Source: a bacterium (GTDB lineage Bacteria > Patescibacteriota > Minisyncoccia > Phycocordibacterales > UBA2100). Taken from it: a stretch of DNA of 64,000 bases. Positions within the stretch are counted from its first letter, which is position 1. Each line of letters begins with the position of its first letter. Positions 3,462 through 62,003 of this stretch are shown here, one piece after another. A program made the position numbers and the translations under genes. The notes under the pieces were generated by a model that saw nothing but the letters and a program-made list of their open reading frames with translations, had not been told where the DNA came from and did not search any database. The stretch covers positions 1,308 to 65,307 of the forward strand of contig JAEUQT010000001.1 in assembly GCA_016789445.1 (NCBI GenBank), in the 5' to 3' direction.

Positions 3462-4433
3462 TTAAACGGTGAAATTTCGAGCTGAGTATAGATCGTCAGC
3501 AGGTTCTTCGGGAGGCAGCAGTTCCGCCGCTATCTCCGGCGGTGTCGCTTCCTGCATCGCTTCTGCGGGCGTAAGGTCAGAGGTAACAGAAGCTTCGCGC
3601 TTCGCAATCAAATCACGCAGGTGTGCGAGATCCTCCGCAGAAAAGAATTCCACGATAAGCTTCCCCGCACCCTTCTCCTTCTTCTCGATGCGCACGCGCG
3701 TACCGAGCGAATCCGAAAGCTCCCGCTCGAGCGTGAGTAATTCCGGTGTCAGGTCGCCCTTGCGGGTCTTCTCCGTCGCGATGCGGCGCGCAAGCTGCTC
3801 GGTGTCGCGCACATTCAATCGTTTCAATTTGATGTCTTCAAAGAGCACGCGCTGCTCTTCCGGACGCTCCTGGAGCATAAGGAGCGGACGCGTATGACCC
3901 TCGGTGATCTCACCGGAGACGACCGCATCTTGGATATCCTGCGGCAGAAGGAGGATGCGGAGCGAGTTCGAGACGTATTCGCGGCTCTTACCGACCTTCT
4001 TGCCGATCTCCGCATGCTTCAGGCTGAACTGATCGACAAGCTGTTTGAATGCCTTCGCGCGATCCACCGCATTGAGATCCTCGCGCTGGAGGTTCTCGAT
4101 GATCGCGAGTTCGAGCTTCATCTGGTCACTGTCTTCCGCGCGACGGATGACGACCGGCACCTGGTAGAGACCCGCCAGTTTCGATGCGCGCAGACGGCGT
4201 TCGCCAGCGATGAGTTCGTACTCGACACGGATTCCCTCACCCGGAATCTCGGTCTCCTTACGCGTCACGGTGAGCGGCTGCAAGACGCCGTACTGACGGA
4301 TGCTCTCCGCAAGCGATGCAAGCGCCATCTGGTCGAATTCCTTACGCGGCTGGTACGGATTCGGCTTGATGCGATCCACCTCTACCCAGTAGATGGAATT
4401 GTCGTACAGCGCCTTTCCTGGAATTTCCTCCAT
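3462..4433 (-). CDS. parB: Chromosome partitioning protein ParB/Spo0J
   Basis: ParB N-terminal box KPNPYQPRKEF...GVLQPLTV...LIAGERRLRASKLAG, an HTH region and an acidic C-terminal tail. Confidence 0.9.
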   Translation of the reverse strand: MEEIPGKALYDNSIYWVEVDRIKPNPYQPRKEFDQMALASLAESIRQYGVLQPLTVTRKETEIPGEGIRVEYELIAGERRLRASKLAGLYQVPVVIRRAEDSDQMKLELAIIENLQREDLNAVDRAKAFKQLVDQFSLKHAEIGKKVGKSREYVSNSLRILLLPQDIQDAVVSGEITEGHTRPLLMLQERPEEQRVLFEDIKLKRLNVRDTEQLARRIATEKTRKGDLTPELLTLERELSDSLGTRVRIEKKEKGAGKLIVEFFSAEDLAHLRDLIAKREASVTSDLTPAEAMQEATPPEIAAELLPPEEPADDLYSARNFTV

Positions 4434-4465
4434 ATCGAGAGGATTATATCACGGTGCCGGAAGAA

Positions 4466-4624
4466 GCTCGGTCACGGATAATTTCCTCGCCGACGCTCGG
4501 GAATTTCCGCGACCCCGGCTCGCGGTCCTGCCTGCTAGCGGGACATCGCTCCGCCTTTCGAGTCTCTCACAGACAGCGCATTGGCGCTGTCTTTTCCGGC
4601 ACCGCTTTCGCGATGCTCAATCGG
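4466..4624 (-). repeat. Type-A composite structured repeat, immediately downstream of tRNA-Leu(CAA)
   Basis: Contains GACTCGAAAGGCGGAGCGATGT...CCGCGAGCCGGGGTCGCGGAAATT...ATTATCCGTGACCGAGC and the hairpin GACAGCGCcaatGCGCTGTC. It is near-identical in architecture to 19041-19196. Confidence 0.75.
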
Positions 4625-4707
4625 TGCCGGAAGAGAGACTCGAACTCTCAAGGGGTTGCCCCCGCACGATTTTGAGTCGTGTGCGTATACCATTCCGCCA
4701 TTCCGGC
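4625..4707 (-). tRNA. tRNA-Leu (anticodon CAA)
   Basis: Reverse complement reads GCCGGAATGGCGGAATGGTATACGC-ACACGACTCAAAATCGTGC-long variable arm-GAGAGTTCGAGTCTCTCTTCCGGCA, with acceptor GCCGGAA/TTCCGGC and anticodon loop cuCAAaa. Confidence 0.85.
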
Positions 4708-4800
4708 TTGTATGAAGCCAAACATCAGGATTCTAGCCTTTCTAGGCTCATTCTGCTAGGCTGCCCGAAGCCAATAGTGGCTCAAAAAGAGGTGAATAGG

Positions 4801-5544
4801 ATGCTGAAACTCGAATCGTTCCAGCGCATACTCCCCGCCTTCGACAAGAGCTCGATGCTCGTCAAAGACTACGAGCTTCTCGAGATGCTCTATCCGTTCA
4901 TCGGCGGCGTGAAGATCGGTCTGGAGGCCATCAACGCTCCGATGCCGGATCACTCGATGCATGTCGGTGACAATCTGCGGAAGTTCGTGCAGACCCGCGC
5001 CGTACCCGTGATGTGGGACGTCAAACTGAACGACATCCCCAATACGGTCGGCGGCGCAGTTGCCAACATTACGCGTAAGCGGGTGTGGGGTATCACGGTC
5101 ATGGCGAGCGCCGGTATCGACGCAGTACGGGCAGCGGTCGCTAAGCGTGCGGATGCGAATATCATCGGCGTCACGGTTCTGACGTCGATGTCACCCGAGG
5201 AGTGCAAAGCCATCTACGGTCGCATTCCAACCGCGCAGGTTTCGTATTTCGCGGAGACTCTCTTCGAAGCTGGCGCGCAGGCAATCGTCTGTTCCCCGCT
5301 CGAGCTTGAAGTCGTCCGGAAAACGATCGGCGACAAGCTGTTCTGCATCACACCGGGAATCCGTCGAAAAGACGCTCCGGCTGACGACCAGAACCGCACG
5401 ATGTCTGCAGGAGACGCCATCAAGGCGGGTGCGGATTACCTCGTCATCGGCCGCCCTATCATGGGCGCGGAGGATCCGGCGGGAGCGGCACGCGCCTTCT
5501 GCGACGAAATCGCAGCGGCAAGCGCTAACCTCTCGATGGTCTAG
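4801..5544 (+). CDS. pyrF: Orotidine 5'-phosphate decarboxylase
   Basis: AGGTGA RBS then ATG at 4801. Product MLKLESFQ...KDAPADDQNRTMSAGDAIKAGADYLVIGRPI matches OMP decarboxylase signatures. The ORF-track start at 4393 would run through the antisense of tRNA-Leu and is not credible. Confidence 0.85.
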   Translation: MLKLESFQRILPAFDKSSMLVKDYELLEMLYPFIGGVKIGLEAINAPMPDHSMHVGDNLRKFVQTRAVPVMWDVKLNDIPNTVGGAVANITRKRVWGITVMASAGIDAVRAAVAKRADANIIGVTVLTSMSPEECKAIYGRIPTAQVSYFAETLFEAGAQAIVCSPLELEVVRKTIGDKLFCITPGIRRKDAPADDQNRTMSAGDAIKAGADYLVIGRPIMGAEDPAGAARAFCDEIAAASANLSMV

Positions 5545-5640
5545 TTCTTTCAACTTCACAGGCGGCCGCAAGGTCGCCTGTTTCTTTTTGCGCATGCACG
5601 CGGTATGCTCGCTGAGGTCAATAGAAACAGGAGTCAGACC

Positions 5641-6309
5641 ATGAGTGAACAATCCGTCTGGGATACGCTCCGAGATATGGGAGCAATCCTCAAGGACGAC
5701 CACTTCGTCTACACTAAGGGCGGCCACGGCAGCGAGTACGTCAACAAGGACGCACTTTTCATGCATCCCGCGGGCTTCTCGAAACTCTGCAGCATGATCG
5801 CTGACGAGTTCCGGGATATGTTCGGGACTCCGCTTCCTGATGTGGTCCTCGGACCAGCGGTTGGCGGCGCGCTTGTCGCGCAGCAGGTCGCATACCATCT
5901 CGGCGCGAACTCTCGATCGAAGCCATTGGCTATTTACGCCGACAAGGAAGGTGATGGATTCGTCCTAAAGCGCGGATACGATGAAAAAGTGCCGGGCAAG
6001 AAGATCCTTATCGTCGAGGATATCCTCAACACCGGAGGTTCCGTGAAGCAGGTTGTCGAACTTGCACGTACGCATGGCGGCGACGTCATCGGCGTCGGCG
6101 CCATCTGCAATCGTGGCGATGTGCGCATCGTCGACATCGGCAAGCCACCGAAATTATTCAGCGTCGTCTCGACGCGGATGGTCATGTACGATTCCAGCCA
6201 ATGTCCGCTCTGTGCGGAAGGGCGACCGATCAATACCAAGATCGGCAAAGGCAAGGAATACGTCGAGAAACACGGCCAGCCTAAGGTTCCTGATTACGAA
6301 GATTCCTAA
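5641..6309 (+). CDS. pyrE: Orotate phosphoribosyltransferase-like (type I PRTase)
   Basis: AGGAG RBS then ATG 5641. PRPP-binding motif ILIVEDILNTGGSVKQVVE. It is adjacent to pyrF. Confidence 0.75.
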   Translation: MSEQSVWDTLRDMGAILKDDHFVYTKGGHGSEYVNKDALFMHPAGFSKLCSMIADEFRDMFGTPLPDVVLGPAVGGALVAQQVAYHLGANSRSKPLAIYADKEGDGFVLKRGYDEKVPGKKILIVEDILNTGGSVKQVVELARTHGGDVIGVGAICNRGDVRIVDIGKPPKLFSVVSTRMVMYDSSQCPLCAEGRPINTKIGKGKEYVEKHGQPKVPDYEDS

Positions 6310-6312
6310 TGA

Positions 6313-6348
6313 CCGCGGACGGCATCCTTGCCGTCCGCTTTTCTTTTA
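6313..6348 (+). terminator. Rho-independent terminator after pyrE
   Basis: GCGGACGGCATCCTTGCCGTCCGC followed by TTTTCTTTT. Confidence 0.7.
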
Positions 6349-6363
6349 TGCAGTATGCGGTGG

Positions 6364-7200
6364 ATGCAGAAGATAATAGTCATAGTCGGTCCTACCGCCT
6401 CGGGCAAAAGTTCCCTTGCGGTCAAGCTCGCCAAGAAACTGAAAGGCGAAGTCATTTCTGCTGATTCGCGACAGGTCTACAAAGGACTGGACATCGGCAC
6501 CGGCAAGATCACGAAAAAAGAGATGCAGGGTGTGCCGCACCACCTGCTCGATGTCGCTTCGCCCAAGAAAGTGTTCACCGCCAACGAATTCGTGGAACTC
6601 GGCCGTAAAGCGATCGACGACATCATCTCCCGCGGCAAAATGCCCATCATCTGCGGCGGCACCGGTTTTTATATCGACGCCCTTCTCGGCCGCATCGCAC
6701 TCCCTGCCGTACCACCGAATCCGAAACTTCGCGCGCAGCTCGCAAAGAAAACCGCCGCTCAGCTTTTCGCAATGCTCACAAAGCTCGACCCGCGCCGCGC
6801 AAAAGATATTGATGCACAGAATCCCGTACGCCTTATCCGTGCCATCGAGATCGCCAAAGCACTCGGTAACGTCCCCGCCTCGAAACCCGAGCCGCTTCCC
6901 TACGCAATCGAATGGATCGGCCTCAAGCCTGATGAAAAGAAACTCCGCACGAAGATACACAAACGTCTCCACGACCGCATGAAATCCGGCATGCTCCGCG
7001 AAGCAGGGCGCCTACATAACGCCGGACTCTCCTACAAGCGAATGGATCAGCTCGGTCTCGAATATCGTTACCTCGCGCTCCGTATGCAGAAGAAGATCGA
7101 CAAGGCAGCAATGCTCGAAAAGCTCGAGAACGAGATCTGGCAGTACGCGAAACGGCAGCTCACCTACTTCAAGAAGAATCCGGAAATCGAATGGCGCTAG
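6364..7200 (+). CDS. miaA: tRNA dimethylallyltransferase
   Basis: P-loop IIVIVGPTASGKSSLA..., ISADSRQVYKGLDIGT, typical MiaA length. Confidence 0.85.
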   Translation: MQKIIVIVGPTASGKSSLAVKLAKKLKGEVISADSRQVYKGLDIGTGKITKKEMQGVPHHLLDVASPKKVFTANEFVELGRKAIDDIISRGKMPIICGGTGFYIDALLGRIALPAVPPNPKLRAQLAKKTAAQLFAMLTKLDPRRAKDIDAQNPVRLIRAIEIAKALGNVPASKPEPLPYAIEWIGLKPDEKKLRTKIHKRLHDRMKSGMLREAGRLHNAGLSYKRMDQLGLEYRYLALRMQKKIDKAAMLEKLENEIWQYAKRQLTYFKKNPEIEWR

Positions 7201-7476: not shown

Positions 7477-7486
7477 GACCTTTTTG

Positions 7487-7520
7487 AAAGCCGCGCGAAT
7501 TACTTCGCGCGGCTTTTTTT
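7487..7520 (+). terminator. Rho-independent terminator
   Basis: AAAGCCGCGCGAATTACTTCGCGCGGCTTTTTTT. Confidence 0.8.
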
Positions 7521-7530
7521 GGATCGTTGC

Positions 7531-7672
7531 GGTCACAACTCTCACTCTCGCCGTAGCTCGAGTTCGGTCGCGACCCCGCCTCGTCCGTTTCGCCTACTGG
7601 CGAAACATACCTCCGGCTCCCGCAAAAGCACAAAGACAGCACGCAGGTGCTGTCTTGTGTGTATTTTGCGGG
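7531..7672 (-). repeat. Type-A structured repeat (reverse orientation) in the 3' region of the AOX-like gene
   Basis: Reverse complement reads CAAAA-ACACACAAGACAGCACctgcGTGCTGTCTTTGTGCTTTTG...ATGTTTCGCCagtagGCGAAAC-GGACGAGGCGGGGTCGCGACC...GTGACC. The same modules occur at 19684-19890. Confidence 0.7.
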
Positions 7673-7757: not shown

Positions 7758-8456
7758 TTAATCCTTAACTATCTCCCGTATCGAGGTATTGCGATGGATT
7801 ATCTCGTCGTTGCGTATGGAACGGAAGAATTCATACTGGTTACGCGGATTGCGCCCGTACCATGTTAAAAATTCTGATTCTATCGATTTCCCCTTCAATT
7901 TCTCTCCCCACGTTTCAAGAAAGCGGCTATATTGCTCGAACGCGTGGTTCTCGAACATATAGTTGAGCTCATACGACCATTTCGGATTCAGTAGGTAGAG
8001 GATGTAGGACCACCAGAAGTAGAAAAACGCGAAAAGCATCGGGATGAGGGTGTGGAGGATATACCCTGCCTTCTCGCCCTCTTTCCGTGCGATATGTGAG
8101 ATGACGACGACATGCATCGTTTCATTGTCCTGCGCGATACGTGCGTACTTAGCGATATTCGAAAGCTTCATCGCTTTCTGTTCGTCGGTATAGGTGGCGG
8201 TAAGCATAGTGAAGGCCGCCGACGCCCACGAATGATATGGGACGCGTGCAATCACCTCGACGGCGCGGAATTTGAGATACGACGGTTCGTGTCCGTAGAA
8301 CGTGTTACCGAGGATCACAAGCCACTTACCGAGAAGTTTCGGCAGGAACGCGGGTTTATAGTCGTCGTAGGGTCGCTTGTATTCCGCCAACTGATCGGGA
8401 TCATTCAGCTGCTGATTCAATGCCTCGAGATCGGTATCACCTCTTTGGAGCTCCAT
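7758..8456 (-). CDS. Alternative oxidase/plastoquinol terminal oxidase-like di-iron carboxylate protein
   Basis: Four helix motifs in AOX order: AVEVIARVP, DNETMHVVV (E-x-x-H), MFENHAFEQY (E..H) and RNDEIIHRN (D-E-x-x-H). Length 232 aa. Confidence 0.65.
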   Translation of the reverse strand: MELQRGDTDLEALNQQLNDPDQLAEYKRPYDDYKPAFLPKLLGKWLVILGNTFYGHEPSYLKFRAVEVIARVPYHSWASAAFTMLTATYTDEQKAMKLSNIAKYARIAQDNETMHVVVISHIARKEGEKAGYILHTLIPMLFAFFYFWWSYILYLLNPKWSYELNYMFENHAFEQYSRFLETWGEKLKGKSIESEFLTWYGRNPRNQYEFFRSIRNDEIIHRNTSIREIVKD

Positions 8457-8617
8457 GGTTGGGATTGTATACGCTTATGAAGAAACGTTCTAGACGCCGA
8501 TTTCTAATTCACCTGGGTTCGAATCCCTTTCGGGTACGAACCCCTCCGGGAATAGAACTAGCTGAATAGTGGCTTAAAACCATGCATCAGCATACCTCCG
8601 ATACTTTTTGCTTTGAG

Positions 8618-8688
8618 CGGGCCCACTAGGAATCGAACCTAGGCTAACGGTTTTGGAGACCGATGTACTACCATTATACGATGGACCC
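8618..8688 (-). tRNA. tRNA-Trp (anticodon CCA)
   Basis: Reverse complement reads GGGTCCA-TC-GTATAATGGTAGTAC-A-TCGGTCTCCAAAACCGT-TAGCC-TAGGTTCGATTCCTA-GTGGGCCC-G, with anticodon loop cuCCAaa. Confidence 0.8.
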
Positions 8689-9280: not shown

Positions 9281-9715
9281 CTAGAGGCCCAGATTGGTGC
9301 AGATATTGTTCCAAACAACATTATCCTTCAGGAGGCTGCTCATGAGGGTATCCACCACCAGCCACGCCACCATGATGACGATGAGGCCGATGGCCACGTT
9401 CCCGAAGAGCTTTTTAGCCTTATCCTTCTGGCCGATGGCCTCGTTGGAGAGGTACAACCAGCCGGCATACGCGAAAAGGAGCGCCGCGAGGAATACCGAG
9501 AGGAAGATGCCACCGTTGATGAGATTCTGCGCCAACTGGATGAGATGCTCGCATTTACAGTCCAAGCCATTGCACGGGACGATTTTGTCCGGCAAACCAC
9601 CGCCTCCCTGCTGCGCAAACGCGAAGTACGGCAGAAGGGCCACTACGGCCGGAATGAACGCGAAGATGCGCTGAAGCAACATGGCGTAAGTGTAGCATCG
9701 CCACTCTCTCCCCAT
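9281..9715 (-). CDS. TrbC/VirB2-like pilin-family small membrane protein (paralog 6, isolated)
   Basis: Signal-peptide-like N-terminus (LLQRIFAFIPAVVALLPYFAFAQQ), two hydrophobic helices and a Cys-rich loop CNGLDCKCEHL. Its architecture matches the tandem paralogs at 20580-22355. The overlapping + strand ORF 9224-9883 is taken as spurious. Confidence 0.6.
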   Translation of the reverse strand: MGREWRCYTYAMLLQRIFAFIPAVVALLPYFAFAQQGGGGLPDKIVPCNGLDCKCEHLIQLAQNLINGGIFLSVFLAALLFAYAGWLYLSNEAIGQKDKAKKLFGNVAIGLIVIMVAWLVVDTLMSSLLKDNVVWNNICTNLGL

Positions 9716-16125: not shown

Positions 16126-16273
16126 CGTGCGCAGCAGCGCACGGGCGGAGGGGGTCGGGGAACCGCCATCGGTTCCCCGTGTCGGAGAGCAGGGCGGCGA
16201 GCGAAGCGCTGCCGTCCGTTGAGAACCGAGGGTTCTCAAAACGAACCGCCGGACTGGCCGGACGGTTCGTTTC
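16126..16273 (+). repeat. Type-B structured repeat (copy B2) in the divergent intergenic region upstream of infB
   Basis: GTGCGCagcagCGCAC hairpin, then GGAGGGGGTCGGGGAACCgccatcGGTTCCCC-GTGTCGGAGAGCAGGGCGGCGAGCGAAGCGCTGCCGTCCG-TTGAGAACCgaggGTTCTCAAAA. Confidence 0.75.
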
Positions 16274-18316: not shown

Positions 18317-18372
18317 CCGTTTTTGCAAAACCGCTACTGGATGGGTGAGACGGGGTTGGGGCCCCGTCGCAA

Positions 18373-18436
18373 GGCCGGAGACGCTCGGCGTCGAGGCGGG
18401 GTCGCGGAAATTTTCAGCAGAAAATTATCCGTGACC
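18373..18436 (+). repeat. Type-A structured repeat (minimal module)
   Basis: GGCCGGAGacgcTCGGcgtCGAGGCGGGGTCGCGGAAATTTTCagcaGAAAATTATCCGTGACC. Confidence 0.75.
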
Positions 18437-19040: not shown

Positions 19041-19196
19041 ATTGAGCAGAGCGAAGCTGTGTCGGGGAGAACAGTGCCGACGCACTGTTCGGGTGGGACT
19101 CGAAAGGCGGAGCGATGTTTCGTCAGCAGACGAAACCGCGAGCCGGGGTCGCGAAAAAGTCTGCACGACGGTGCAGACTTTATTCGTGACCGAGCC
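19041..19196 (+). repeat. Type-A composite structured repeat, immediately downstream of tRNA-Leu(TAA)
   Basis: GATTGAGCA...GTGTCGGGGAGAACAGTGCcgacGCACTGTTcggg-GACTCGAAAGGCGGAGCGATGTTTCGTCagcagACGAAACCGCGAGCCGGGGTCGCGAAAAAGTCTGCACgacgGTGCAGACTTTATTCGTGACCGAGCC. Confidence 0.8.
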
Positions 19197-19683
19197 AAAC
19201 GGAATCAAAACGAGCTCTTTGCCGAGTCCTTCTCCCGGCAGCGAAAATTGTTTACACAAGATTCTTGAATCGCTCTTTCAGGAGTCGATATCTACGAATC
19301 GTATCGGGTTGCGAAAGAACACGCCCACTGTCTCTCTCTTCTCCTTCAAGTTGTTGAAACGTGAGGTCTGAATATTGGTCCTTTGTAAAATCAATCTGCG
19401 TTCCGTCTGCGAGAGCGTTCCAGTAATGTGAGCGCAAATGCGCATATTTAGATATATGTGCCAGTGAACCGCACATCAACTTACCACCCAAGTATTCCTG
19501 CGCTAAAACAGAAGCAACTGCACAATGTCCCCACAATGGATTGTGTTCTGTCCAATGTTTCGGATCTGCAGATGTGTCGCGCTGCGCGACATTTCTCAGT
19601 ATTCGTGAGAATGTGTCTCGATCGACTGTCATATCTAGCACTAATTAGCTTGATAATATCATTCCTTATCTTCACGGATATTT
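19197..19683. other. Low-GC islet between tRNA-Leu(TAA) and tRNA-Lys, flanked by type-A repeats
   Basis: GC visibly about 45% versus about 60% for flanking DNA. One hypothetical gene (19252-19641). Confidence 0.5.
19252..19641 (-). CDS. Hypothetical protein in a lower-GC islet between tRNA-Leu(TAA) and tRNA-Lys
   Basis: 129-aa ORF. The local GC (~45%) is clearly below the window average. Confidence 0.5.
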   Translation of the reverse strand: MLDMTVDRDTFSRILRNVAQRDTSADPKHWTEHNPLWGHCAVASVLAQEYLGGKLMCGSLAHISKYAHLRSHYWNALADGTQIDFTKDQYSDLTFQQLEGEERDSGRVLSQPDTIRRYRLLKERFKNLV

Positions 19684-19890
19684 CTTGCCCGACGGTGCAA
19701 TAAATTCCGCGACCCCGACTCGCCGCTCCGGCAGCTGCCGGAACATCGCTGCGGCTCGGACGAGTCCTCAAAGATAATGTTCTCGCCGTCGCTCGAAAAT
19801 TTCCCCGAGCCTGGCTCGCGGTTTTGCGTGCTCGCAAAACATCGCTCCGCCTCGGACAAAAGCACAAAACCTCCCACAGGGGAGGTTGTT
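19684..19890 (-). repeat. Tandem type-A structured repeat modules immediately downstream of tRNA-Lys
   Basis: Reverse complement reads CAAAAGACACAACAACCTCCCctgtGGGAGGTTTTGTGCTTTTG-TCCGAGGCGGAGCGATGTTTTGCGagcacGCAAAACCGCGAGCC...ATTATC...GAGCCGCAGCGATGTTCCGGCagctGCCGGAG...GTCGGGGTCGCGGAATTTATTGCACC. Confidence 0.75.
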
Positions 19891-20579: not shown

Positions 20580-20882
20580 TTAGAACGGACTCGCCGGCAG
20601 GGAGTTCTGCACACGGCTCACATCGGTGGATGCGACATCCAAGCCGAAGGAGTTCACGATGAGCGCGATGATGCCGTAGACGGAAACCATGATGAGCATG
20701 CCGAGGAGGCCGTACACCATATGGTCCTTCCCCTTCTGTGAGGCTTCTCCGTTTTTCACGCCCCACAAAAACTCGACGATTCCCCAGATGAAGAGGAAGA
20801 GGCCGAGGGTGAATATGACGCGAAGACCAGGATCGATCACGTTCGTGATGATCCGCTGTAGGATCTCTTCGCCGGCTTGCAT
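20580..20882 (-). CDS. TrbC/VirB2-like pilin-family small membrane protein (tandem paralog 5)
   Basis: Two hydrophobic helices, RVIFTLGLFLFIWGIV and VYGLLGMLIMVSVYGIIALIV, flanking a charged loop. Last gene of the tandem array. Confidence 0.6.
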   Translation of the reverse strand: MQAGEEILQRIITNVIDPGLRVIFTLGLFLFIWGIVEFLWGVKNGEASQKGKDHMVYGLLGMLIMVSVYGIIALIVNSFGLDVASTDVSRVQNSLPASPF

Positions 20883-20899
20883 ACACGCTTACGCTGATG

Positions 20900-21265
20900 C
20901 TACTGCATCATGCGCGTATCGATCTGGATCGTCTTCGGGATGACCGGATCGGTCGAAGTAACGCGGAAGGTCGACTGGAGGAGACGGATGATGCCCCAGA
21001 TGGAGACCATGACGAAGATCGTGATGACACCCATCATCATGACCTTGAGACCTTCGGTCTTGCCTTCAGCACCGTCGTTGAGAAGGTACTTGATGAGACC
21101 GTAGAAGAAGACCACGATCGCGAGCGTGATGAAAAGATAGACCAGCGAGTTGAGGAACTGCGAGACCATCGCGAGCGTGTTGAGAAGCGTCTGCGCCGAT
21201 GCGAGCATCGGGAGAAAGAGCGATCCTGCCGAGAGTGCTGAAACTACTGATAGTCTGGTACGCAT
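20900..21265 (-). CDS. TrbC/VirB2-like pilin-family small membrane protein (tandem paralog 4)
   Basis: Signal peptide MRTRLSVVSALSAGSLFLPMLASAQ, two TM helices and a C-terminal motif shared with paralog 5 (TSTDPV / STDVS). Confidence 0.65.
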   Translation of the reverse strand: MRTRLSVVSALSAGSLFLPMLASAQTLLNTLAMVSQFLNSLVYLFITLAIVVFFYGLIKYLLNDGAEGKTEGLKVMMMGVITIFVMVSIWGIIRLLQSTFRVTSTDPVIPKTIQIDTRMMQ

Positions 21266-21628: not shown

Positions 21629-22000
21629 TCAATTGAGACATTCCGCCGCGATACAATCGAATTCCTGCGGACCTCCGCCGCCGAAATCCCCGCCGCCACC
21701 GCCACCGCCGAAGAGCGAATTACGTACGAGACCGACGATCCCCCACACGGAAACCATGACGAAGAGCGCGATGAGTCCCCACACGATGCGGCGGCTTAAT
21801 TCTTCAGAGCCGCCCTTGCTTAAGGAGACAAGTCCGGTCGCGACGCCATAGAAGTAGACGACGAGACCGAGGATGATCGCCGTACCGATGCCGGCATTGA
21901 GGAACTGCACGACGGTCTCCGCGAGCTCGGAGAACGTACGCGGTGCGGCTGCGGCCACCGCCGGTAGTGCGAGTATCGCGACAAGGAGAGCAAGGCGCAT
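21629..22000 (-). CDS. TrbC/VirB2-like pilin-family small membrane protein (tandem paralog 2) with Gly-rich tail
   Basis: Signal peptide MRLALLVAILALPAVAAAAP, two TM helices and a GGGGGGDFGGGGPQEFDC tail. Confidence 0.65.
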   Translation of the reverse strand: MRLALLVAILALPAVAAAAPRTFSELAETVVQFLNAGIGTAIILGLVVYFYGVATGLVSLSKGGSEELSRRIVWGLIALFVMVSVWGIVGLVRNSLFGGGGGGGDFGGGGPQEFDCIAAECLN

Positions 22001-23689: not shown

Positions 23690-24259
23690 TTATTGGGAAG
23701 TTTTCCGGAAGATAAGCCCGTAATGATGCGCGCCGGCATTGAATTCACGCACGAAGGTGAGTCCTGCCTTTCGTGCATGCTCGTATGCCTGCTCTTTGGT
23801 GACCACATGATCTTCCGTCGGTCCCATGCCGCGGAACGATTCCGACCAATCGATGATGATGACTCTTCCCCCATGCTTCAGCGTTCGCTCCGCCTCGATA
23901 AGGACGCCCGTCTTGTCGCGTACCTGGAACAGGAGATTCGAGACAAGGACGATATCCAACACGCTGCCGAGTTTCGAACCGCCGTCTTCCTCGACATCCC
24001 CCCAGATGACATCGACATTTGTGTGGCCATGCTTCACGGCATCATTCTTGATGCGTCGCAGGAGATCCTTCTGGATATCGATCGCATAGACCGTACCGCT
24101 TCCGAGAAGCTCCTTGGCGATGAGATTCACATACGCGCCGGAACCGGCGCCGAAGTCGGCAACCTTCATGCCCGGCTCGATACCGAACGCGCTCACCGTG
24201 CGCGCGGGATGCGCGAAACGACGCTTCTCATGCGTAGAACCTCCCTGGTGAGGGTACAT
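23690..24259 (-). CDS. Class I SAM-dependent methyltransferase
   Basis: Motif I VADFGAGSGAY, motif II AIDIQ, small Rossmann MTase. Confidence 0.75.
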   Translation of the reverse strand: MYPHQGGSTHEKRRFAHPARTVSAFGIEPGMKVADFGAGSGAYVNLIAKELLGSGTVYAIDIQKDLLRRIKNDAVKHGHTNVDVIWGDVEEDGGSKLGSVLDIVLVSNLLFQVRDKTGVLIEAERTLKHGGRVIIIDWSESFRGMGPTEDHVVTKEQAYEHARKAGLTFVREFNAGAHHYGLIFRKTSQ

Positions 24260-29603: not shown

Positions 29604-29619
29604 TAGTTGAGCTTCGCAA

Positions 29620-29683
29620 GGCCGGAGGCGCTTGGCGCCGAGGCGGGGTCGCGCAAAATCGCAGTAGCGATTTATGCGTGACA
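29620..29683 (+). repeat. Type-A structured repeat (minimal module) after rpsA
   Basis: GGCCGGAGGCGCttgGCGCCGAGGCGGGGTCGCGCAAAATCGCagtaGCGATTTATGCGTGAC. Confidence 0.75.
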
Positions 29684-39218: not shown

Positions 39219-40184
39219 ATGTATGACCTCGCAATCGTCGGTGGCGGCCCCGCAGGGGTAGCAGCAGCCGTATACGCAGCGCGCAAGCGCCTGAAGACCA
39301 TCCTCATCACCGATGATTGGGGCGGCCAGAGCACCGTTTCTCCGGAAATCCAGAACTGGATCGGCGATCAGGCCATCAGTGGCGCCGATCTCGCGAAGAA
39401 ACTCCGCGCACATGTCGAAGCCTATAAGGGCGAATGGCTCACCATCGTCTCTCCGCACCGCGCAAAGACGACGGTCGATAACGGCACGCACATCACCATC
39501 ACCTGTTCCGACAGTTCCACCCACGAAGCACGCACCCTTCTCATCGCCACCGGCTCCAACCGCCGCAAACTCGAAATCCCGGGCGCGGCGGAATACGACA
39601 ATAAAGGCCTCACCTACTGCGCCTCGTGCGATGGACCCCTGTTCGCTGACATGGACGTCGCCGTCATCGGCGGCGGCAACGCCGCGTTCGAAACCGCGAT
39701 GCAGCTCCTCGCGTACTGCAAGACCGTCACCCTTTTCAATCGCTCCGAGACGTTCCGCGCCGACGAACTCACTGTCGAGAAAGTACTCGCACACCCGAAG
39801 ATGCGCGTCGAGAAGAATTCCACGCTTCTGGAAGTCACCGGCGAGAAATTCGTGAACGGTCTGCGCTTCAAGAATGCTGCCGGCGAAGAGAAGAAGCTTG
39901 ATGTCGCGGGTATCTTCGTCGAGATCGGCCTTGTCCCGAACACCGACTGGGTGAAGGACGTCGTGAAGATGAACGAGATCGGCCAGATCATCGCCGATCC
40001 GTACACCCAGCGCACCTCCAACGCCCGCATCTGGGCGGCGGGTGATTGCACCGACGGCAAGTACCACCAGAACAACATCGCCGCAGGAGACGCCGTGAAG
40101 GCGCTCGAAGACATCTACGCCTACGTCCACATGGAAAAGGACCACCAGCCCGCGACTGCCAGCATATCCGAAATCGTAGTCTAA
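39219..40184 (+). CDS. trxB: Thioredoxin-disulfide reductase
   Basis: FAD motif AIVGGGPAG, redox CASCDG, NAD(P) motif VAVIGGGNAAFE. Confidence 0.9.
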   Translation: MYDLAIVGGGPAGVAAAVYAARKRLKTILITDDWGGQSTVSPEIQNWIGDQAISGADLAKKLRAHVEAYKGEWLTIVSPHRAKTTVDNGTHITITCSDSSTHEARTLLIATGSNRRKLEIPGAAEYDNKGLTYCASCDGPLFADMDVAVIGGGNAAFETAMQLLAYCKTVTLFNRSETFRADELTVEKVLAHPKMRVEKNSTLLEVTGEKFVNGLRFKNAAGEEKKLDVAGIFVEIGLVPNTDWVKDVVKMNEIGQIIADPYTQRTSNARIWAAGDCTDGKYHQNNIAAGDAVKALEDIYAYVHMEKDHQPATASISEIVV

Positions 40185-48560: not shown

Positions 48561-48605
48561 CATGAGACACAAAACCTGCCCTGCGGCAGGTTTTGTGCCA
48601 TGTGC

Positions 48606-48762
48606 GAGCCGGAGCGATGTTCCGCCAGCAGGCGGAACCGCGAGGCCGGGTCGGGCGGCAGTTTGCGCGACGGCGCAAGCTGAATGCCTGACCACACATG
48701 AAAGACCGGCGAGACGGGGTCGCGAAAAAATTCGCCTGACGAGGCGGATTTTATTCGTGACC
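48606..48762 (+). repeat. Two tandem type-A structured repeat modules downstream of tRNA-Val
   Basis: GAGCCGGAGCGATGTTCCGCCagcagGCGGAACCGCGAGGCCGGGTCGGGCGG..., then GAGACGGGGTCGCGAAAAAATTCGCCtgacgAGGCGGATTTTATTCGTGACCGATCC. A 15-bp direct repeat TGAATGCCTGACCAC at 48681 and 48818 brackets the second module. Confidence 0.75.
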
Positions 48763-48844
48763 GATCCTTTCTGCTCCATCGCGACGGCGACGGGAATCTC
48801 TGTGACCACTGAGAATTTGAATGCCTGACCACGAGCAACTCTTT

Positions 48845-55681: not shown

Positions 55682-55803
55682 CAGAATCTCCGAAAGGTTC
55701 CGGAGATTCTTTGAGAACCCTCGGTTCTCAACGGGCTATTTCGCTTCGCTCATAGCCCTGCTCTCCTACACGGGAAAACTACAGTTTTCCCGCCCCCTTT
55801 CGG
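55682..55803 (-). repeat. Type-B structured repeat (copy B3) abutting the 5' end of tRNA-Phe
   Basis: Reverse complement reads GGGGGCGGGAAAACtgtagGTTTTCCC-GTGTAGGAGAGCAGGGCTATgagcgaagcgaaATAGCCCG-TTGAGAACCgaggGTTCTCAAAGAATCTCCggaacctttcGGAGATTCTG. Confidence 0.75.
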
Positions 55804-58231: not shown

Positions 58232-58471
58232 TTAGAGGCTAAGAAGTCGGCGCAGCTCTTCTTCGTCGTACCCGACGATGACGTTCTCACCGATCGTGAT
58301 GACCGGCACGCCCATCTGACCGGACTTCTCGATCATCTCTTTGCGCTTCTCGACGTCTGCGGCGACGTTATGCTCGACATACTCGACGTTGTGCTCCTTG
58401 AAGAACTCTTTCGTCATACCACAGAAGTGGCACGTCGGCGTTGAATAGATGGCTACTGGTGAATTGGTCAT
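58232..58471 (-). CDS. Glutaredoxin-like protein (NrdH/Grx family)
   Basis: 79 aa with a redox CPxC motif (TCHFC) in IYSTPTCHFCGMTKEFF and a thioredoxin fold. Confidence 0.75.
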   Translation of the reverse strand: MTNSPVAIYSTPTCHFCGMTKEFFKEHNVEYVEHNVAADVEKRKEMIEKSGQMGVPVITIGENVIVGYDEEELRRLLSL

Positions 58472-59891: not shown

Positions 59892-59990
59892 ATCACGCAT
59901 AAATCGCTGGTGCGATTTTGCGTGACCCCGCCTCGCAGCCGAGCTGCTCCGGCCTTGCGACGGGGTCCCAACCCCGCCTCACCTCTGCGT
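59892..59990 (-). repeat. Type-A structured repeat (reverse orientation) downstream of lepA
   Basis: GTCACGCATAAATCGCtggtGCGATTTTGCGTGACCCCGCCTCGCAGCcgagCTGCTCCGGCC is the reverse complement of the consensus seen at 29620-29683, with a compensatory loop change. Confidence 0.75.
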
Positions 59991-61865: not shown

Positions 61866-61915
61866 ACATTACGCAGTGTACAGAAGCATGGACTTGAGAG
61901 CGCACATTGTTCGAA

Positions 61916-62003
61916 AGGGGTCGGGAAAACTGTAGTTTTCCCGTGGAGGAAGGCAGGCCGCTGTGCGGCCGTTGGAAACCGTGGGTTTCCAAGGAGCCGT
62001 GGT
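61916..62003 (+). repeat. Type-B structured repeat (copy B4) inserted between the lepA start and a duplicated lepA 5' fragment
   Basis: GAAAGGGGTCGGGAAAACtgtagGTTTTCCC-GTGGAGGAAGGCAGGCCGCtgtGCGGCC-GTTGGAAACCgtggGTTTCCAAGG. Confidence 0.75.

What the first reader, a model, noticed from the sequence alone, without database searches (positions are those of the whole stretch)
7758..8456. Alternative-oxidase (AOX/PTOX)-like di-iron protein in a reduced genome
The 232-aa product carries the four di-iron ligand motifs in AOX order and spacing: E in AVEVIARVP, E-x-x-H in DNETMHVVV, E in MFENHAFEQY and E-x-x-H in RNDEIIHRN. It also has the hydrophobic membrane-association region between helices 2 and 3 (LIPMLFAFFYFWWSYILYLL). 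No quinone-biosynthesis or respiratory-chain gene is visible in the window. If this is a CPR-type organism, an AOX-like oxidase is unexpected. It could be an O2-scavenging or detoxifying enzyme that uses host- or membrane-derived quinols, or it could have a different di-iron function such as a demethoxyubiquinone-hydroxylase-like one. Its 3' region carries a type-A repeat.
Basis: partly seen in the sequence, partly recalled or inferred. Interest (0 to 1): 0.6.

Follow-up and report, generated by a model that had tools for sequence, protein, structure and literature searches.

The report
Alternative-oxidase-family enzyme in CPR bacterium
A gene in an ultra-small, apparently non-respiring bacterium encodes an intact oxygen-reducing di-iron enzyme of the alternative-oxidase/plastid-terminal-oxidase family, from a large, little-noticed branch found in such bacteria and, on two contigs, in tiny DPANN archaea, though its electron donor is unknown.

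Summary

It is neither classical AOX nor classical PTOX: it fails both published motif sets. It belongs to a short prokaryotic branch that groups with PTOX when rooted on TAO. Over 1,000 clusters and 182 species genomes carry it, nearly all Paceibacteria; two relatives lie on DPANN-type archaeal contigs. The gene is stand-alone and under strong purifying selection (dN/dS about 0.1). The window holds no respiratory or quinone gene.

Most likely it is a membrane-surface quinol-type oxidase reducing O2 to water for oxygen removal or redox balance, using scavenged quinones. Donor and role are inferred. Papers searched barely mention it, though databases auto-annotate it. It is a new variant of a known kind, of moderate interest. 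The "type-A repeat" lies in the 3' spacer, not the gene.

The parts
7758..8456 (-). CDS of a 232-aa AOX/PTOX-family membrane di-iron carboxylate oxidase (stop codon 7758-7760)
   Evidence: ORF listing. Pfam PF01786 at 37.5 bits against a 22.7-bit cut-off. AF2 model pLDDT 92. TAO is the best fold match.
8295..8348 (-). Residues 37-54, N-terminal amphipathic hydrophobic helix (FLPKLLGKWLVILGNTFY); candidate first membrane-binding helix
   Evidence: Helix H37-54 in the model. Hydropathy 0.93 and hydrophobic moment 1.1. The equivalence to TAO alpha1 is inferred.
8256..8258 (-). E67, iron ligand 1 (aligns with TAO E123)
   Evidence: Profile alignment to TAO. Invariant in 68/68. Codon checked.
8112..8123 (-). 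E112-x-x-H115, iron ligands 2 and 3 (align with TAO E162/H165), within DNETMHVVV
   Evidence: The neighbouring N111 aligns with TAO N161.
7989..8063 (-). Residues 132-156, strongly hydrophobic helix (YILHTLIPMLFAFFYFWWSYILYLL); candidate membrane-anchoring helix
   Evidence: Helix H132-156 in the model. Hydropathy 1.52. Aligns with TAO ITQAIMYLFLLVAYVISPRF.
7929..7952 (-). E169 (iron ligand 4, aligns with TAO E213) to Y176 (aligns with TAO Y220), motif FENHAFEQY
   Evidence: H171 gives an E-x-H-A motif shared with the PTOX sequences.
7794..7808 (-). D217-E218-x-x-H221, iron ligands 5 and 6 (align with TAO E266/H269) plus a second-sphere Asp (TAO D265)
7566..7634 (+).
   Evidence: the repeat finder family D5. 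Alignment with six other copies shows a conserved CGCGACCCCGnCTCG core and a hairpin whose stem covaries.
7633..7656 (.). 10-bp hairpin followed by T-rich tracts on both strands; likely bidirectional terminator shared by the convergent miaA and oxidase genes
   Evidence: Terminator scan. The 3'-UTR fold has z = -4.3.
8617..8688 (-). tRNA-Trp(CCA) immediately upstream and co-directional with the oxidase gene, 160-nt spacer
   Evidence: ARAGORN. Rfam tRNA at 62.5 bits.

Best explanation
The gene encodes a functional membrane-surface di-iron carboxylate oxidase of the AOX/PTOX type. Four helices carry E67, E112-x-x-H115, E169 and E218-x-x-H221, which would bind two iron atoms. Y176 sits where TAO's catalytic tyrosine sits. 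Two hydrophobic helices (37-54 and 132-156) would dip the protein into the cytoplasmic leaflet of the membrane. By analogy with AOX and PTOX, it takes electrons from a lipid-soluble quinol-type donor and reduces O2 to water without pumping protons. The host is a fermentative Paceibacteria cell with no respiratory chain and no visible quinone synthesis. There the most likely role is oxygen removal and redox balancing rather than energy conservation, and the quinone is probably scavenged from a host or neighbour along with lipids. Shown here: family membership, fold, an intact and strongly conserved active site, and lineage distribution. Inferred: iron binding, quinol as donor, O2 to water, and the physiological role.
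Against: No quinone source or quinone reductase was found. Motif scans of about 364,000 aa of ORFs from 81 carrier loci found no UbiA-type prenyltransferase, no DHODH-like and no NDH-2-sized flavoprotein; these are weak negatives from 20-kb samples, not whole genomes. No neighbour is conserved (at most 15 of 74 loci), so context gives no functional partner. Helix 2 (ETMHVVV) and helix 3 (FENHA) differ from the diagnostic motifs of both AOX and PTOX, so substrate specificity cannot be transferred safely. Carrier contigs come from both oxic (H41, H51) and anoxic (H43, H52) Hainich wells, so there is no clean link to oxic habitat. I could not inspect ligand geometry in the model because coordinates are not exposed.
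Confidence: 0.55

Rival explanations
1. It has the same AOX-type fold and di-iron centre but a different substrate or chemistry. Examples would be oxidation, hydroxylation or desaturation of another lipophilic phenol or lipid, or oxidation of a protein or small-molecule reductant, so that it is not a quinol oxidase.
For: The clade fails the diagnostic motifs of both AOX (ERMHLMT, LEEEA) and PTOX (GWxRR, HHLLxME). It scores only 21-38 bits on Pfam AOX, against 91-111 bits for the PTOX-like relatives scanned. The hosts have no visible quinone pathway. Related interfacial di-iron proteins such as COQ7 perform hydroxylation (my knowledge).
Against: Y176 and the second-sphere residues N111 and D217 are invariant, as are the basic residue (K62) and polar residue (Q175) at the positions of TAO R118 and T219, which I recall as quinol-head contacts. 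This is what retention of quinol-oxidase chemistry would look like. TAO is by far the best structural match over 200 residues, including both membrane helices. There is no Pfam hit to COQ7 or any other ferritin-like family.
Confidence: 0.2
2. It is a true quinol oxidase, but its job is to regenerate oxidised quinone for one specific quinone-dependent biosynthetic dehydrogenase, for example class-2 dihydroorotate dehydrogenase for pyrimidine synthesis. This would parallel Plasmodium mitochondria or PTOX with phytoene desaturase, rather than oxygen defence.
For: pyrF (within 4393-5544) and pyrE (5605-6309) lie 1.5-3 kb away in the window. PTOX and AOX serve exactly this kind of role elsewhere (my knowledge).
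Against: No DHODH-like ORF occurs in the window or in the 81 pooled loci by motif scan (weak). The pyrE/pyrF proximity is not a conserved feature of the neighbourhood. The role would still need a quinone that the cell cannot make.
Confidence: 0.12
3. It is not a working part of this organism: a mis-binned or contaminant fragment, or a decaying relic of horizontal transfer from proteobacteria. PMC9540462 read its single CPR hit as a transfer from proteobacteria.
For: PMC9540462 interprets its one CPR AOX hit as a transfer from proteobacteria. The gene's GC of 0.495 is about 2 SD below the window's gene mean of 0.569.
Against: The gene sits inside a 64-kb window of CPR housekeeping genes and is syntenic with a 566-kb Patescibacteria contig. 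It occurs on Patescibacteria contigs up to 749 kb in 182 species genomes. dN/dS is about 0.1 with invariant catalytic residues. GC3 of 0.644 is within 0.5 SD of the window's genes. None of the best 150 representatives carries the mitochondrial/proteobacterial AOX motif; the named ones among the nearest non-CPR relatives are DPANN, other bacteria and PTOX.
Confidence: 0.02
4. It belongs to another ferritin-like di-iron family: COQ7 hydroxylase, the MiaE tRNA hydroxylase (suggested by the adjacent miaA), rubrerythrin or Dps.
For: miaA (6328-7200) is the convergent neighbour, and the window's miaA also has a homologue on the syntenic contig L067. One source names a family member 'demethoxyubiquinone hydroxylase' (P0378).
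Confidence: 0.02

Closest known systems
Plastid/plastoquinol terminal oxidase (PTOX, IMMUTANS) of plastids and cyanobacteria
   Same: Same Pfam family. It is the closest named relative by sequence: 29% identity over 191 aa, E 9e-18, to Nannochloropsis 'immutans protein'. Shared helix-1 'IARVPY', helix-3 'E-x-H-A...Y' and helix-4 'R-[ND]-D-E-x-x-H' motifs. Presumed non-electrogenic quinol:O2 chemistry.
   Different: Lacks the PTOX diagnostic motifs GWxRR and HHLLxME (it has ETMHVVV). Lacks an ~18-residue stretch that PTOX has before the last iron helix. Short form of about 230 aa without the long N-terminal extension. The host is non-photosynthetic and has no plastoquinone pathway. Forms a separate, 98%-supported prokaryotic clade in the NJ tree.
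Trypanosome alternative oxidase (TAO, PDB 3VV9) and mitochondrial/proteobacterial AOX
   Different: Only 16-19% identity. Neither the single protein nor the CPR-clade profile finds TAO by sequence (hhalign probability 4%). Lacks the AOX motifs ERMHLMT and LEEEA. None of the 150 nearest cluster representatives carries the AOX 'ETVAxVPG' motif. There is no respiratory chain to branch from.
Cytochrome bo3 ubiquinol oxidase in Saccharibacteria and a few Parcubacteria (a functional analogue, not a homologue)
   Same: A quinol-dependent O2 reductase in CPR genomes that lack the rest of the respiratory chain. The literature interprets it as O2 detoxification (PMC9938205; PMC12577380).
   Different: An unrelated haem-copper, multi-subunit, proton-translocating enzyme, found mainly in Saccharimonadia. 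The protein here is a single-subunit di-iron enzyme found in Paceibacteria.
COQ7/Clk-1 demethoxyubiquinone hydroxylase
   Same: An interfacial membrane di-iron carboxylate four-helix bundle that acts on a quinone head group.

Membership tests
AOX/PTOX superfamily (Pfam PF01786, membrane di-iron carboxylate quinol oxidases) | Profile match above the curated gathering score | tested here: met
   37.5 bits against a 22.7-bit cut-off, E 2.6e-9, covering protein 63-224 and profile 56-210 of 216. All 120 listed close homologs carry PF01786.
AOX/PTOX superfamily (Pfam PF01786, membrane di-iron carboxylate quinol oxidases) | Six iron ligands as E, E-x-x-H, E, E-x-x-H on four helices, in TAO order | tested here: met
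   E67, E112, H115, E169, E218 and H221 align with TAO E123, E162, H165, E213, E266 and H269. Invariant in 68/68.
AOX/PTOX superfamily (Pfam PF01786, membrane di-iron carboxylate quinol oxidases) | Conserved catalytic tyrosine seven residues after the third glutamate (TAO Y220) | tested here: met
   Y176 is E169+7, aligns with TAO Y220 and is invariant.
AOX/PTOX superfamily (Pfam PF01786, membrane di-iron carboxylate quinol oxidases) | AOX fold: four-helix bundle plus extra helices including hydrophobic membrane-binding helices | tested here: met
AOX/PTOX superfamily (Pfam PF01786, membrane di-iron carboxylate quinol oxidases) | Superposition of ligand side chains into a di-iron site in 3D | not testable with these tools
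   Model coordinates are not exposed. Only sequence-level ligand correspondence and global fold scores are available.
AOX/PTOX superfamily (Pfam PF01786, membrane di-iron carboxylate quinol oxidases) | Quinol:O2 oxidoreductase activity, cyanide-insensitive and inhibited by SHAM or gallates; iron content | not testable with these tools
   Requires biochemistry.
Mitochondrial/proteobacterial AOX sensu stricto | Diagnostic motifs ERMHLMT (helix 2) and LEEEA (helix 3), from Nobre et al. 2016 as quoted in 10.1101/2021.01.20.427478 | tested here: not met
   The protein has ETMHVVV and FENHA. Helix 1 is IARVPY, not ETVAxVPG.
PTOX sensu stricto | Diagnostic motifs GWxRR and HHLLxME (same source) | tested here: not met
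   There is no GWxRR between helices 1 and 2. Helix 2 reads MHVVVIS.
PTOX sensu stricto | PTOX-specific insertion before the last iron-binding helix; occurrence in oxygenic phototrophs | tested here: not met
   The BLASTP alignment to a named PTOX shows an 18-residue gap in the query at that place. The hosts are Paceibacteria and DPANN.
COQ7 / MiaE / rubrerythrin / ferritin-Dps (other ferritin-like di-iron families) | Profile match or best fold match to that family | tested here: not met

The most novel reading that the evidence does not exclude
A third, prokaryotic branch of the AOX/PTOX family is the sole O2-reducing enzyme of quinone-auxotrophic ultra-small symbionts. These are mainly Paceibacteria (CPR), with relatives in DPANN archaea of the Woesearchaeota/Nanoarchaeota type with which the gene has apparently been exchanged. 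On this reading it runs on quinols taken from, or shared with, the host membrane. That would make it a device that lets fermentative episymbionts tolerate or exploit oxygen, and it would be the first handle on quinone trafficking between host and episymbiont.
Probability: 0.25. Interest if true: 0.7.

Novelty: new variant of a known kind. Interest (0 to 1): 0.5.

Why it matters
CPR bacteria and DPANN archaea are usually described as anaerobic fermenters without respiratory chains, yet many live in oxic groundwater and soil. How they cope with oxygen is an open question. Recent surveys of oxygen-related genes in CPR list superoxide dismutase and cytochrome bo3 oxidase but do not mention this enzyme. 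A 2025 survey of oxygen reductases in a genome set that largely lacked MAGs found AOX only in Pseudomonadota and PTOX only in Cyanobacteriota. A highly conserved, single-gene O2 reductase present in at least 182 species genomes (nearly all Patescibacteria among the 80 listed) would add an overlooked oxygen-handling route. It would also widen the known distribution of the AOX/PTOX family. Because the enzyme needs a lipophilic electron donor that the cell cannot make, it gives a concrete and easily expressed target for testing whether these symbionts use host-derived quinones.

Tried and rejected
1. Direct sequence search of the protein and of the CPR-clade profile against PDB found nothing relevant. 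A broader profile (A2) was needed to reach TAO.
2. NCBIfam gave no hit.
3. I considered a MiaE-type tRNA hydroxylase because miaA is adjacent. I rejected it because the genes are convergent, miaA is not a recurrent close neighbour, and the fold match is poor.
4. I considered COQ7 and rejected it.
5. I looked for a conserved operon partner over 74 loci and found none. The recurrent neighbours are unrelated: PduO-type cobalamin adenosyltransferase, EamA, DUF1761, aldo/keto reductase, SIMPL and TrxB.
6. I looked for carriage on viruses, by analogy with cyanophage PTOX, and found none in IMG/VR.
7. I tried to enlarge the archaeal set with the metagenome scan. It returned only CPR-type sequences at 44-51% identity.
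8. Motif scans for UbiA-type prenyltransferase, DHODH and NDH-2-sized flavoproteins in the pooled loci were all negative, but these are weak tests.
9. BLAST of the rubrerythrin, rubredoxin, Fur and Msr proteins from L083 against CPR loci showed essentially no co-location: one Msr hit, TrxB in 6 loci and glutaredoxin in 3.
10. The first tree attempts failed. One search timed out, and one search was invalid because NaN distances collapsed the tree. Only one search is used.
11. The afdb50 fold library was unavailable.
12. I looked for a tRNA fragment or att-like duplication in the 5' spacer, prompted by a GGTTCGAATCC string. Rfam and BLAST found nothing.
13. A whole-genome census for quinone genes was not possible, because only 20-kb loci can be fetched.

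Full report
**Observation.** The window holds an ORF at 7758..8456 on the minus strand that encodes 232 aa. The start codon is supported by homologs that begin with the same MEL... N-terminus.

**Active site.** The protein alone and a profile of its close relatives do not find TAO by sequence. A broader family profile (A2) does, at E 1.3e-6. The printed alignment places E67, E112, H115, E169, E218 and H221 on TAO E123, E162, H165, E213, E266 and H269, and Y176 on Y220. The numbering converts from 9m2a to 3vv9 by adding 29. The identity of the TAO ligands comes from my knowledge of Shiba et al. 2013. The same alignment puts N111 and D217 on TAO N161 and D265, K62 on R118, Q175 on T219, and the aromatic pair W199-Y200 on Y246-W247. 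In 68 species-level sequences, K62, E67, N111, E112, H115, E169, Y176, Y200, D217, E218 and H221 are invariant.

**Membrane association.** It lies between the second and third ligand helices and aligns with TAO's hydrophobic helix ITQAIMYLFLLVAYVISPRF. A second amphipathic hydrophobic helix spans residues 37-54. Six of the 28 sampled family members add a C-terminal hydrophobic tail of about 30 residues. All of this fits a membrane-surface enzyme. The N-terminus is hydrophilic and has no signal-peptide character.

**Position within the family.** The diagnostic motifs of Nobre et al. 2016, as quoted in preprint 10.1101/2021.01.20.427478, are ERMHLMT and LEEEA for AOX, and GWxRR and HHLLxME for PTOX. 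This protein has ETMHVVV and FENHA and has no GWxRR, so it fails both sets.

It does share IARVPY, E-x-H-A and R-[ND]-D-E-x-x-H with the 300-350-aa relatives found in the exhaustive representative search. One of those clusters contains the Nannochloropsis 'immutans protein', which is PTOX. BLASTP to that PTOX gives 29% identity over 191 aa, E 9e-18, with an 18-residue PTOX stretch missing here. None of the best 150 representatives has the mitochondrial AOX helix-1 motif. The PTOX-like relatives scanned score 91-111 bits on Pfam AOX, whereas this clade and the other short relatives score 21-38 bits.

A neighbour-joining tree rooted on the TAO fragment has four supported groupings (200 bootstraps):
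- The eukaryotic PTOX clade, at 80-86%.
- A prokaryotic short-form super-clade, at 98%.
- Within that super-clade, a clade of other bacteria (100%) and a clade uniting Paceibacteria with DPANN-linked sequences (100%).
- The window protein, inside a 100% core Paceibacteria group.

This tree is rough: it uses NJ and a single AOX outgroup fragment, and I did not identify any cyanobacterial PTOX in the set.

**Distribution and host.** The word-indexed search finds 1,061 90%-identity clusters. The best 120 are 66-100% identical, and where named they are Paceibacterota, Kaiserbacteria, Adlerbacteria, Minisyncoccia or Parcubacteria, often auto-named 'alternative oxidase' or 'ubiquinol oxidase'. In one genome per GTDB species, 182 genomes encode a relative. 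Most of the best 80 are titled Patescibacteria-type MAGs; many are labelled 'uncultured Candidatus Saccharibacteria' and a few carry other or generic labels. Their contigs reach 749 kb. The window itself is CPR-type:
- It holds housekeeping genes only: topA, relA/spoT, parB, pyrF, pyrE, miaA, clpB, nifS-like, infB, rbfA, gyrA, rpsA, pth, lepB, ftsA, ftsZ, trxB, tsaC, tsaD, valS, lepA and murJ (read by eye, with unclear ORFs scanned).
- It has 13 tRNAs.
- Its relA, parB, miaA and nifS genes have their best pooled-locus homologues on L067, a 566-kb Patescibacteria contig that also carries the oxidase.

**Selection.** Median dN/dS is 0.10 for pairs with unsaturated dS. The oxidase is 63-80% identical between loci whose flanking housekeeping genes are 36-65% identical. 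Its GC of 0.495 is about 2 SD below the window's gene mean, but its GC3 of 0.644 is typical. There is therefore no sign of recent foreign origin, and the gene is clearly in use.

**Context.** The gene stands alone. tRNA-Trp lies upstream on the same strand, and miaA lies downstream in convergent orientation. Across 74 loci the most frequent neighbour cluster occurs in only 15. The recurrent ones are a PduO-type cobalamin adenosyltransferase, EamA, DUF1761, an aldo/keto reductase, SIMPL and TrxB. I saw no respiratory or quinone-pathway gene in the window. The only faint lead is a 189-aa generic SAM methyltransferase (23690-24259) that scores 60 bits on Methyltransf_31 and 39.5 bits on part of the UbiE/COQ5 profile. 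Motif scans of 364,000 aa of ORFs from the pooled loci found no UbiA-type prenyltransferase, DHODH-like or NDH-2-sized flavoprotein, which is a weak negative. PMC8672522 states that electron-transport complexes I-IV are absent from almost all Hainich Patescibacteria MAGs, and several carrier loci are named as bins from Hainich wells.

**Relatives outside CPR.** P0122, 46% identical to the window protein, lies on a 14.9-kb, 36-40% GC contig next to rpoH, split rpoB and rpoA. Its RpoA' is 69-75% identical to Candidatus Woesearchaeota and Nanoarchaeota proteins. P0303 lies near an S27-type ribosomal protein and a GatB protein with a GAD domain, which I read as the archaeal GatE architecture. In the tree, P0303 groups at 100% with a sequence that NCBI labels Minisyncoccia, which suggests exchange between CPR and DPANN. 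This rests on two archaeal contigs only, and the metagenome scan added none. A more distant relative, P0146, sits between a Fur-family regulator, four rubrerythrins and a rubredoxin on one side and MsrAB on the other. That is a typical anaerobe oxidative-stress locus, and it lends indirect support to an oxygen-defence role for the short prokaryotic branch.

**Mechanism.** Shown: the protein is an intact, strongly constrained member of the AOX/PTOX fold, with all catalytic and second-sphere residues and hydrophobic helices. Inferred: it binds two irons, sits on the cytoplasmic face of the membrane, oxidises a lipophilic quinol-type donor, and reduces O2 to water without conserving energy. The host apparently lacks both a respiratory chain and quinone synthesis. 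The most economical role is therefore oxygen removal or redox poise with scavenged quinones, the same logic the literature applies to cytochrome bo3 oxidase in Saccharibacteria (PMC9938205). The electron input is the main gap. Carrier contigs come from both oxic (H41, H51) and anoxic (H43, H52) wells, so habitat does not settle the question. Rivals are a different substrate or chemistry on the same scaffold (0.2) and a dedicated quinone re-oxidiser for one biosynthetic dehydrogenase (0.12). Contamination, a decaying relic or another ferritin-like family are each about 0.02.

**Literature.** In the library searched, only PMC9540462 mentions a CPR AOX. It reports a single hit and reads it as a transfer from proteobacteria. 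PMC7618691 (2025) found AOX only in Pseudomonadota and PTOX only in Cyanobacteriota, using a genome set that largely lacked MAGs. Papers on CPR oxygen adaptation do not list the enzyme. None of the 12 top-ranked papers in the DPANN search contains the term 'alternative oxidase'. The protein is thus auto-annotated in databases but essentially undiscussed and uncharacterised.

**The repeat remark.** No repeat lies within the coding 3' end. The 3' spacer carries a partial copy (about 7566-7634) of a dispersed ~90-nt element. The element's core is CGCGACCCCGnCTCG followed by a hairpin whose stem covaries between copies. After it comes a 10-bp hairpin at 7633-7656 with T-rich tracts on both strands. 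This 3' region folds far better than shuffled controls (z = -4.3).

**Verdict.** The refinement is that this is a PTOX-leaning third branch typical of Paceibacteria and, on two contigs, shared with DPANN archaea. It is a new variant of a known kind, of moderate interest (0.5). The value lies less in the enzyme type than in where it sits and in the testable question of its electron donor.

Noticed in passing
L082:8001-8696 (P0122) and L084:1899-2585 (P0303): Close relatives of the window protein (46% identity for P0122) lie on archaeal contigs. L082 carries rpoH, split rpoB and rpoA, and its RpoA' is 69-75% identical to Woesearchaeota/Nanoarchaeota proteins. L084 carries an S27-type ribosomal protein and a GatE-like gene. 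In the NJ tree these sequences interleave with CPR-labelled ones, which suggests CPR-DPANN gene exchange.
   Followed up: partly
L083:3949-4833 (P0146, NCBI GCA_964621645.1): A distant short-form AOX-like gene is divergently placed from a Fur-family regulator. It is flanked by four rubrerythrin genes, a rubredoxin and a fused MsrA/MsrB, which together form an oxidative-stress island of an apparent anaerobe.
   Followed up: partly
window 4466-4607, 18344-18434, 19054-19195, 19672-19868, 29614-29681, 48601-48767, 59893-59983, plus a partial copy at 7566-7634: A family of dispersed, structured intergenic repeats of about 90-140 nt, found in both orientations. It has a conserved CGCGACCCCGnCTCG core and hairpins whose stems covary between copies. 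Most copies lie immediately downstream of tRNA genes (Leu-caa, Cys, Leu-taa, Lys, Val). There is no Rfam match at gathering score. A second repeat family occurs at 16173-16240, 55710-55802 and 61912-61967.
   Followed up: partly
P0050, P0061, P0073, P0078, P0090, P0115 (alignment A1, columns about 240-273): A subset of the Paceibacteria oxidases carries an extra C-terminal extension of about 30 residues that ends in a hydrophobic, transmembrane-like segment. The window protein lacks it.
   Followed up: no
window 23690-24259 (-): A 189-aa SAM methyltransferase scores best on generic Methyltransf_31 (60 bits) but also passes the Ubie_methyltran (UbiE/COQ5) cut-off on a partial match (39.5 bits, profile 40-156 of 233). 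It is probably generic, but it is the only item in the window with any link to quinone chemistry.
   Followed up: no
window 9281-9715 (-), 20900-21265 (-) and repeats at 20661-20721, 20981-21041, 21728-21788: Small hydrophobic proteins with weak matches to the T4SS_pilin family (about 20 bits, below the cut-off). A thrice-repeated 61-nt coding segment around 20.6-21.8 kb suggests a cluster of paralogous small membrane or pilin-like genes.
   Followed up: no
window 7477-7520 (+) and 7633-7656 (both strands): Two strong hairpin terminators lie in the 557-nt spacer between the convergent miaA and oxidase genes. One is a GC-rich hairpin followed by seven T on the + strand (7477-7520). The other is a 10-bp hairpin with T-rich tracts on both strands.
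   Followed up: partly
window 39219-40184 (+) and 58232-58471 (-): A TrxB-type thioredoxin reductase (with a CASC motif) and a glutaredoxin-like protein are the only other redox-defence genes seen in the window. TrxB homologs also occur within 10 kb of the oxidase in 6 of 74 related loci.
   Followed up: partly
L090, L091, L125, L129, L140, L142, L148, L150-L152, L154, L155, L162 (Hainich wells H41, H43, H51): Many carrier contigs come from the Hainich groundwater transect, from both oxic (H41, H51) and anoxic (H43) wells. The published metabolic surveys of this site do not mention the enzyme.
   Followed up: partly
window 4393-5544 (+): The mechanically longest ORF for pyrF begins inside the repeat and tRNA-Leu region. 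The OMP-decarboxylase domain starts only at about residue 163, so the true start is probably near 4880. This is a gene-calling caveat only.
   Followed up: no
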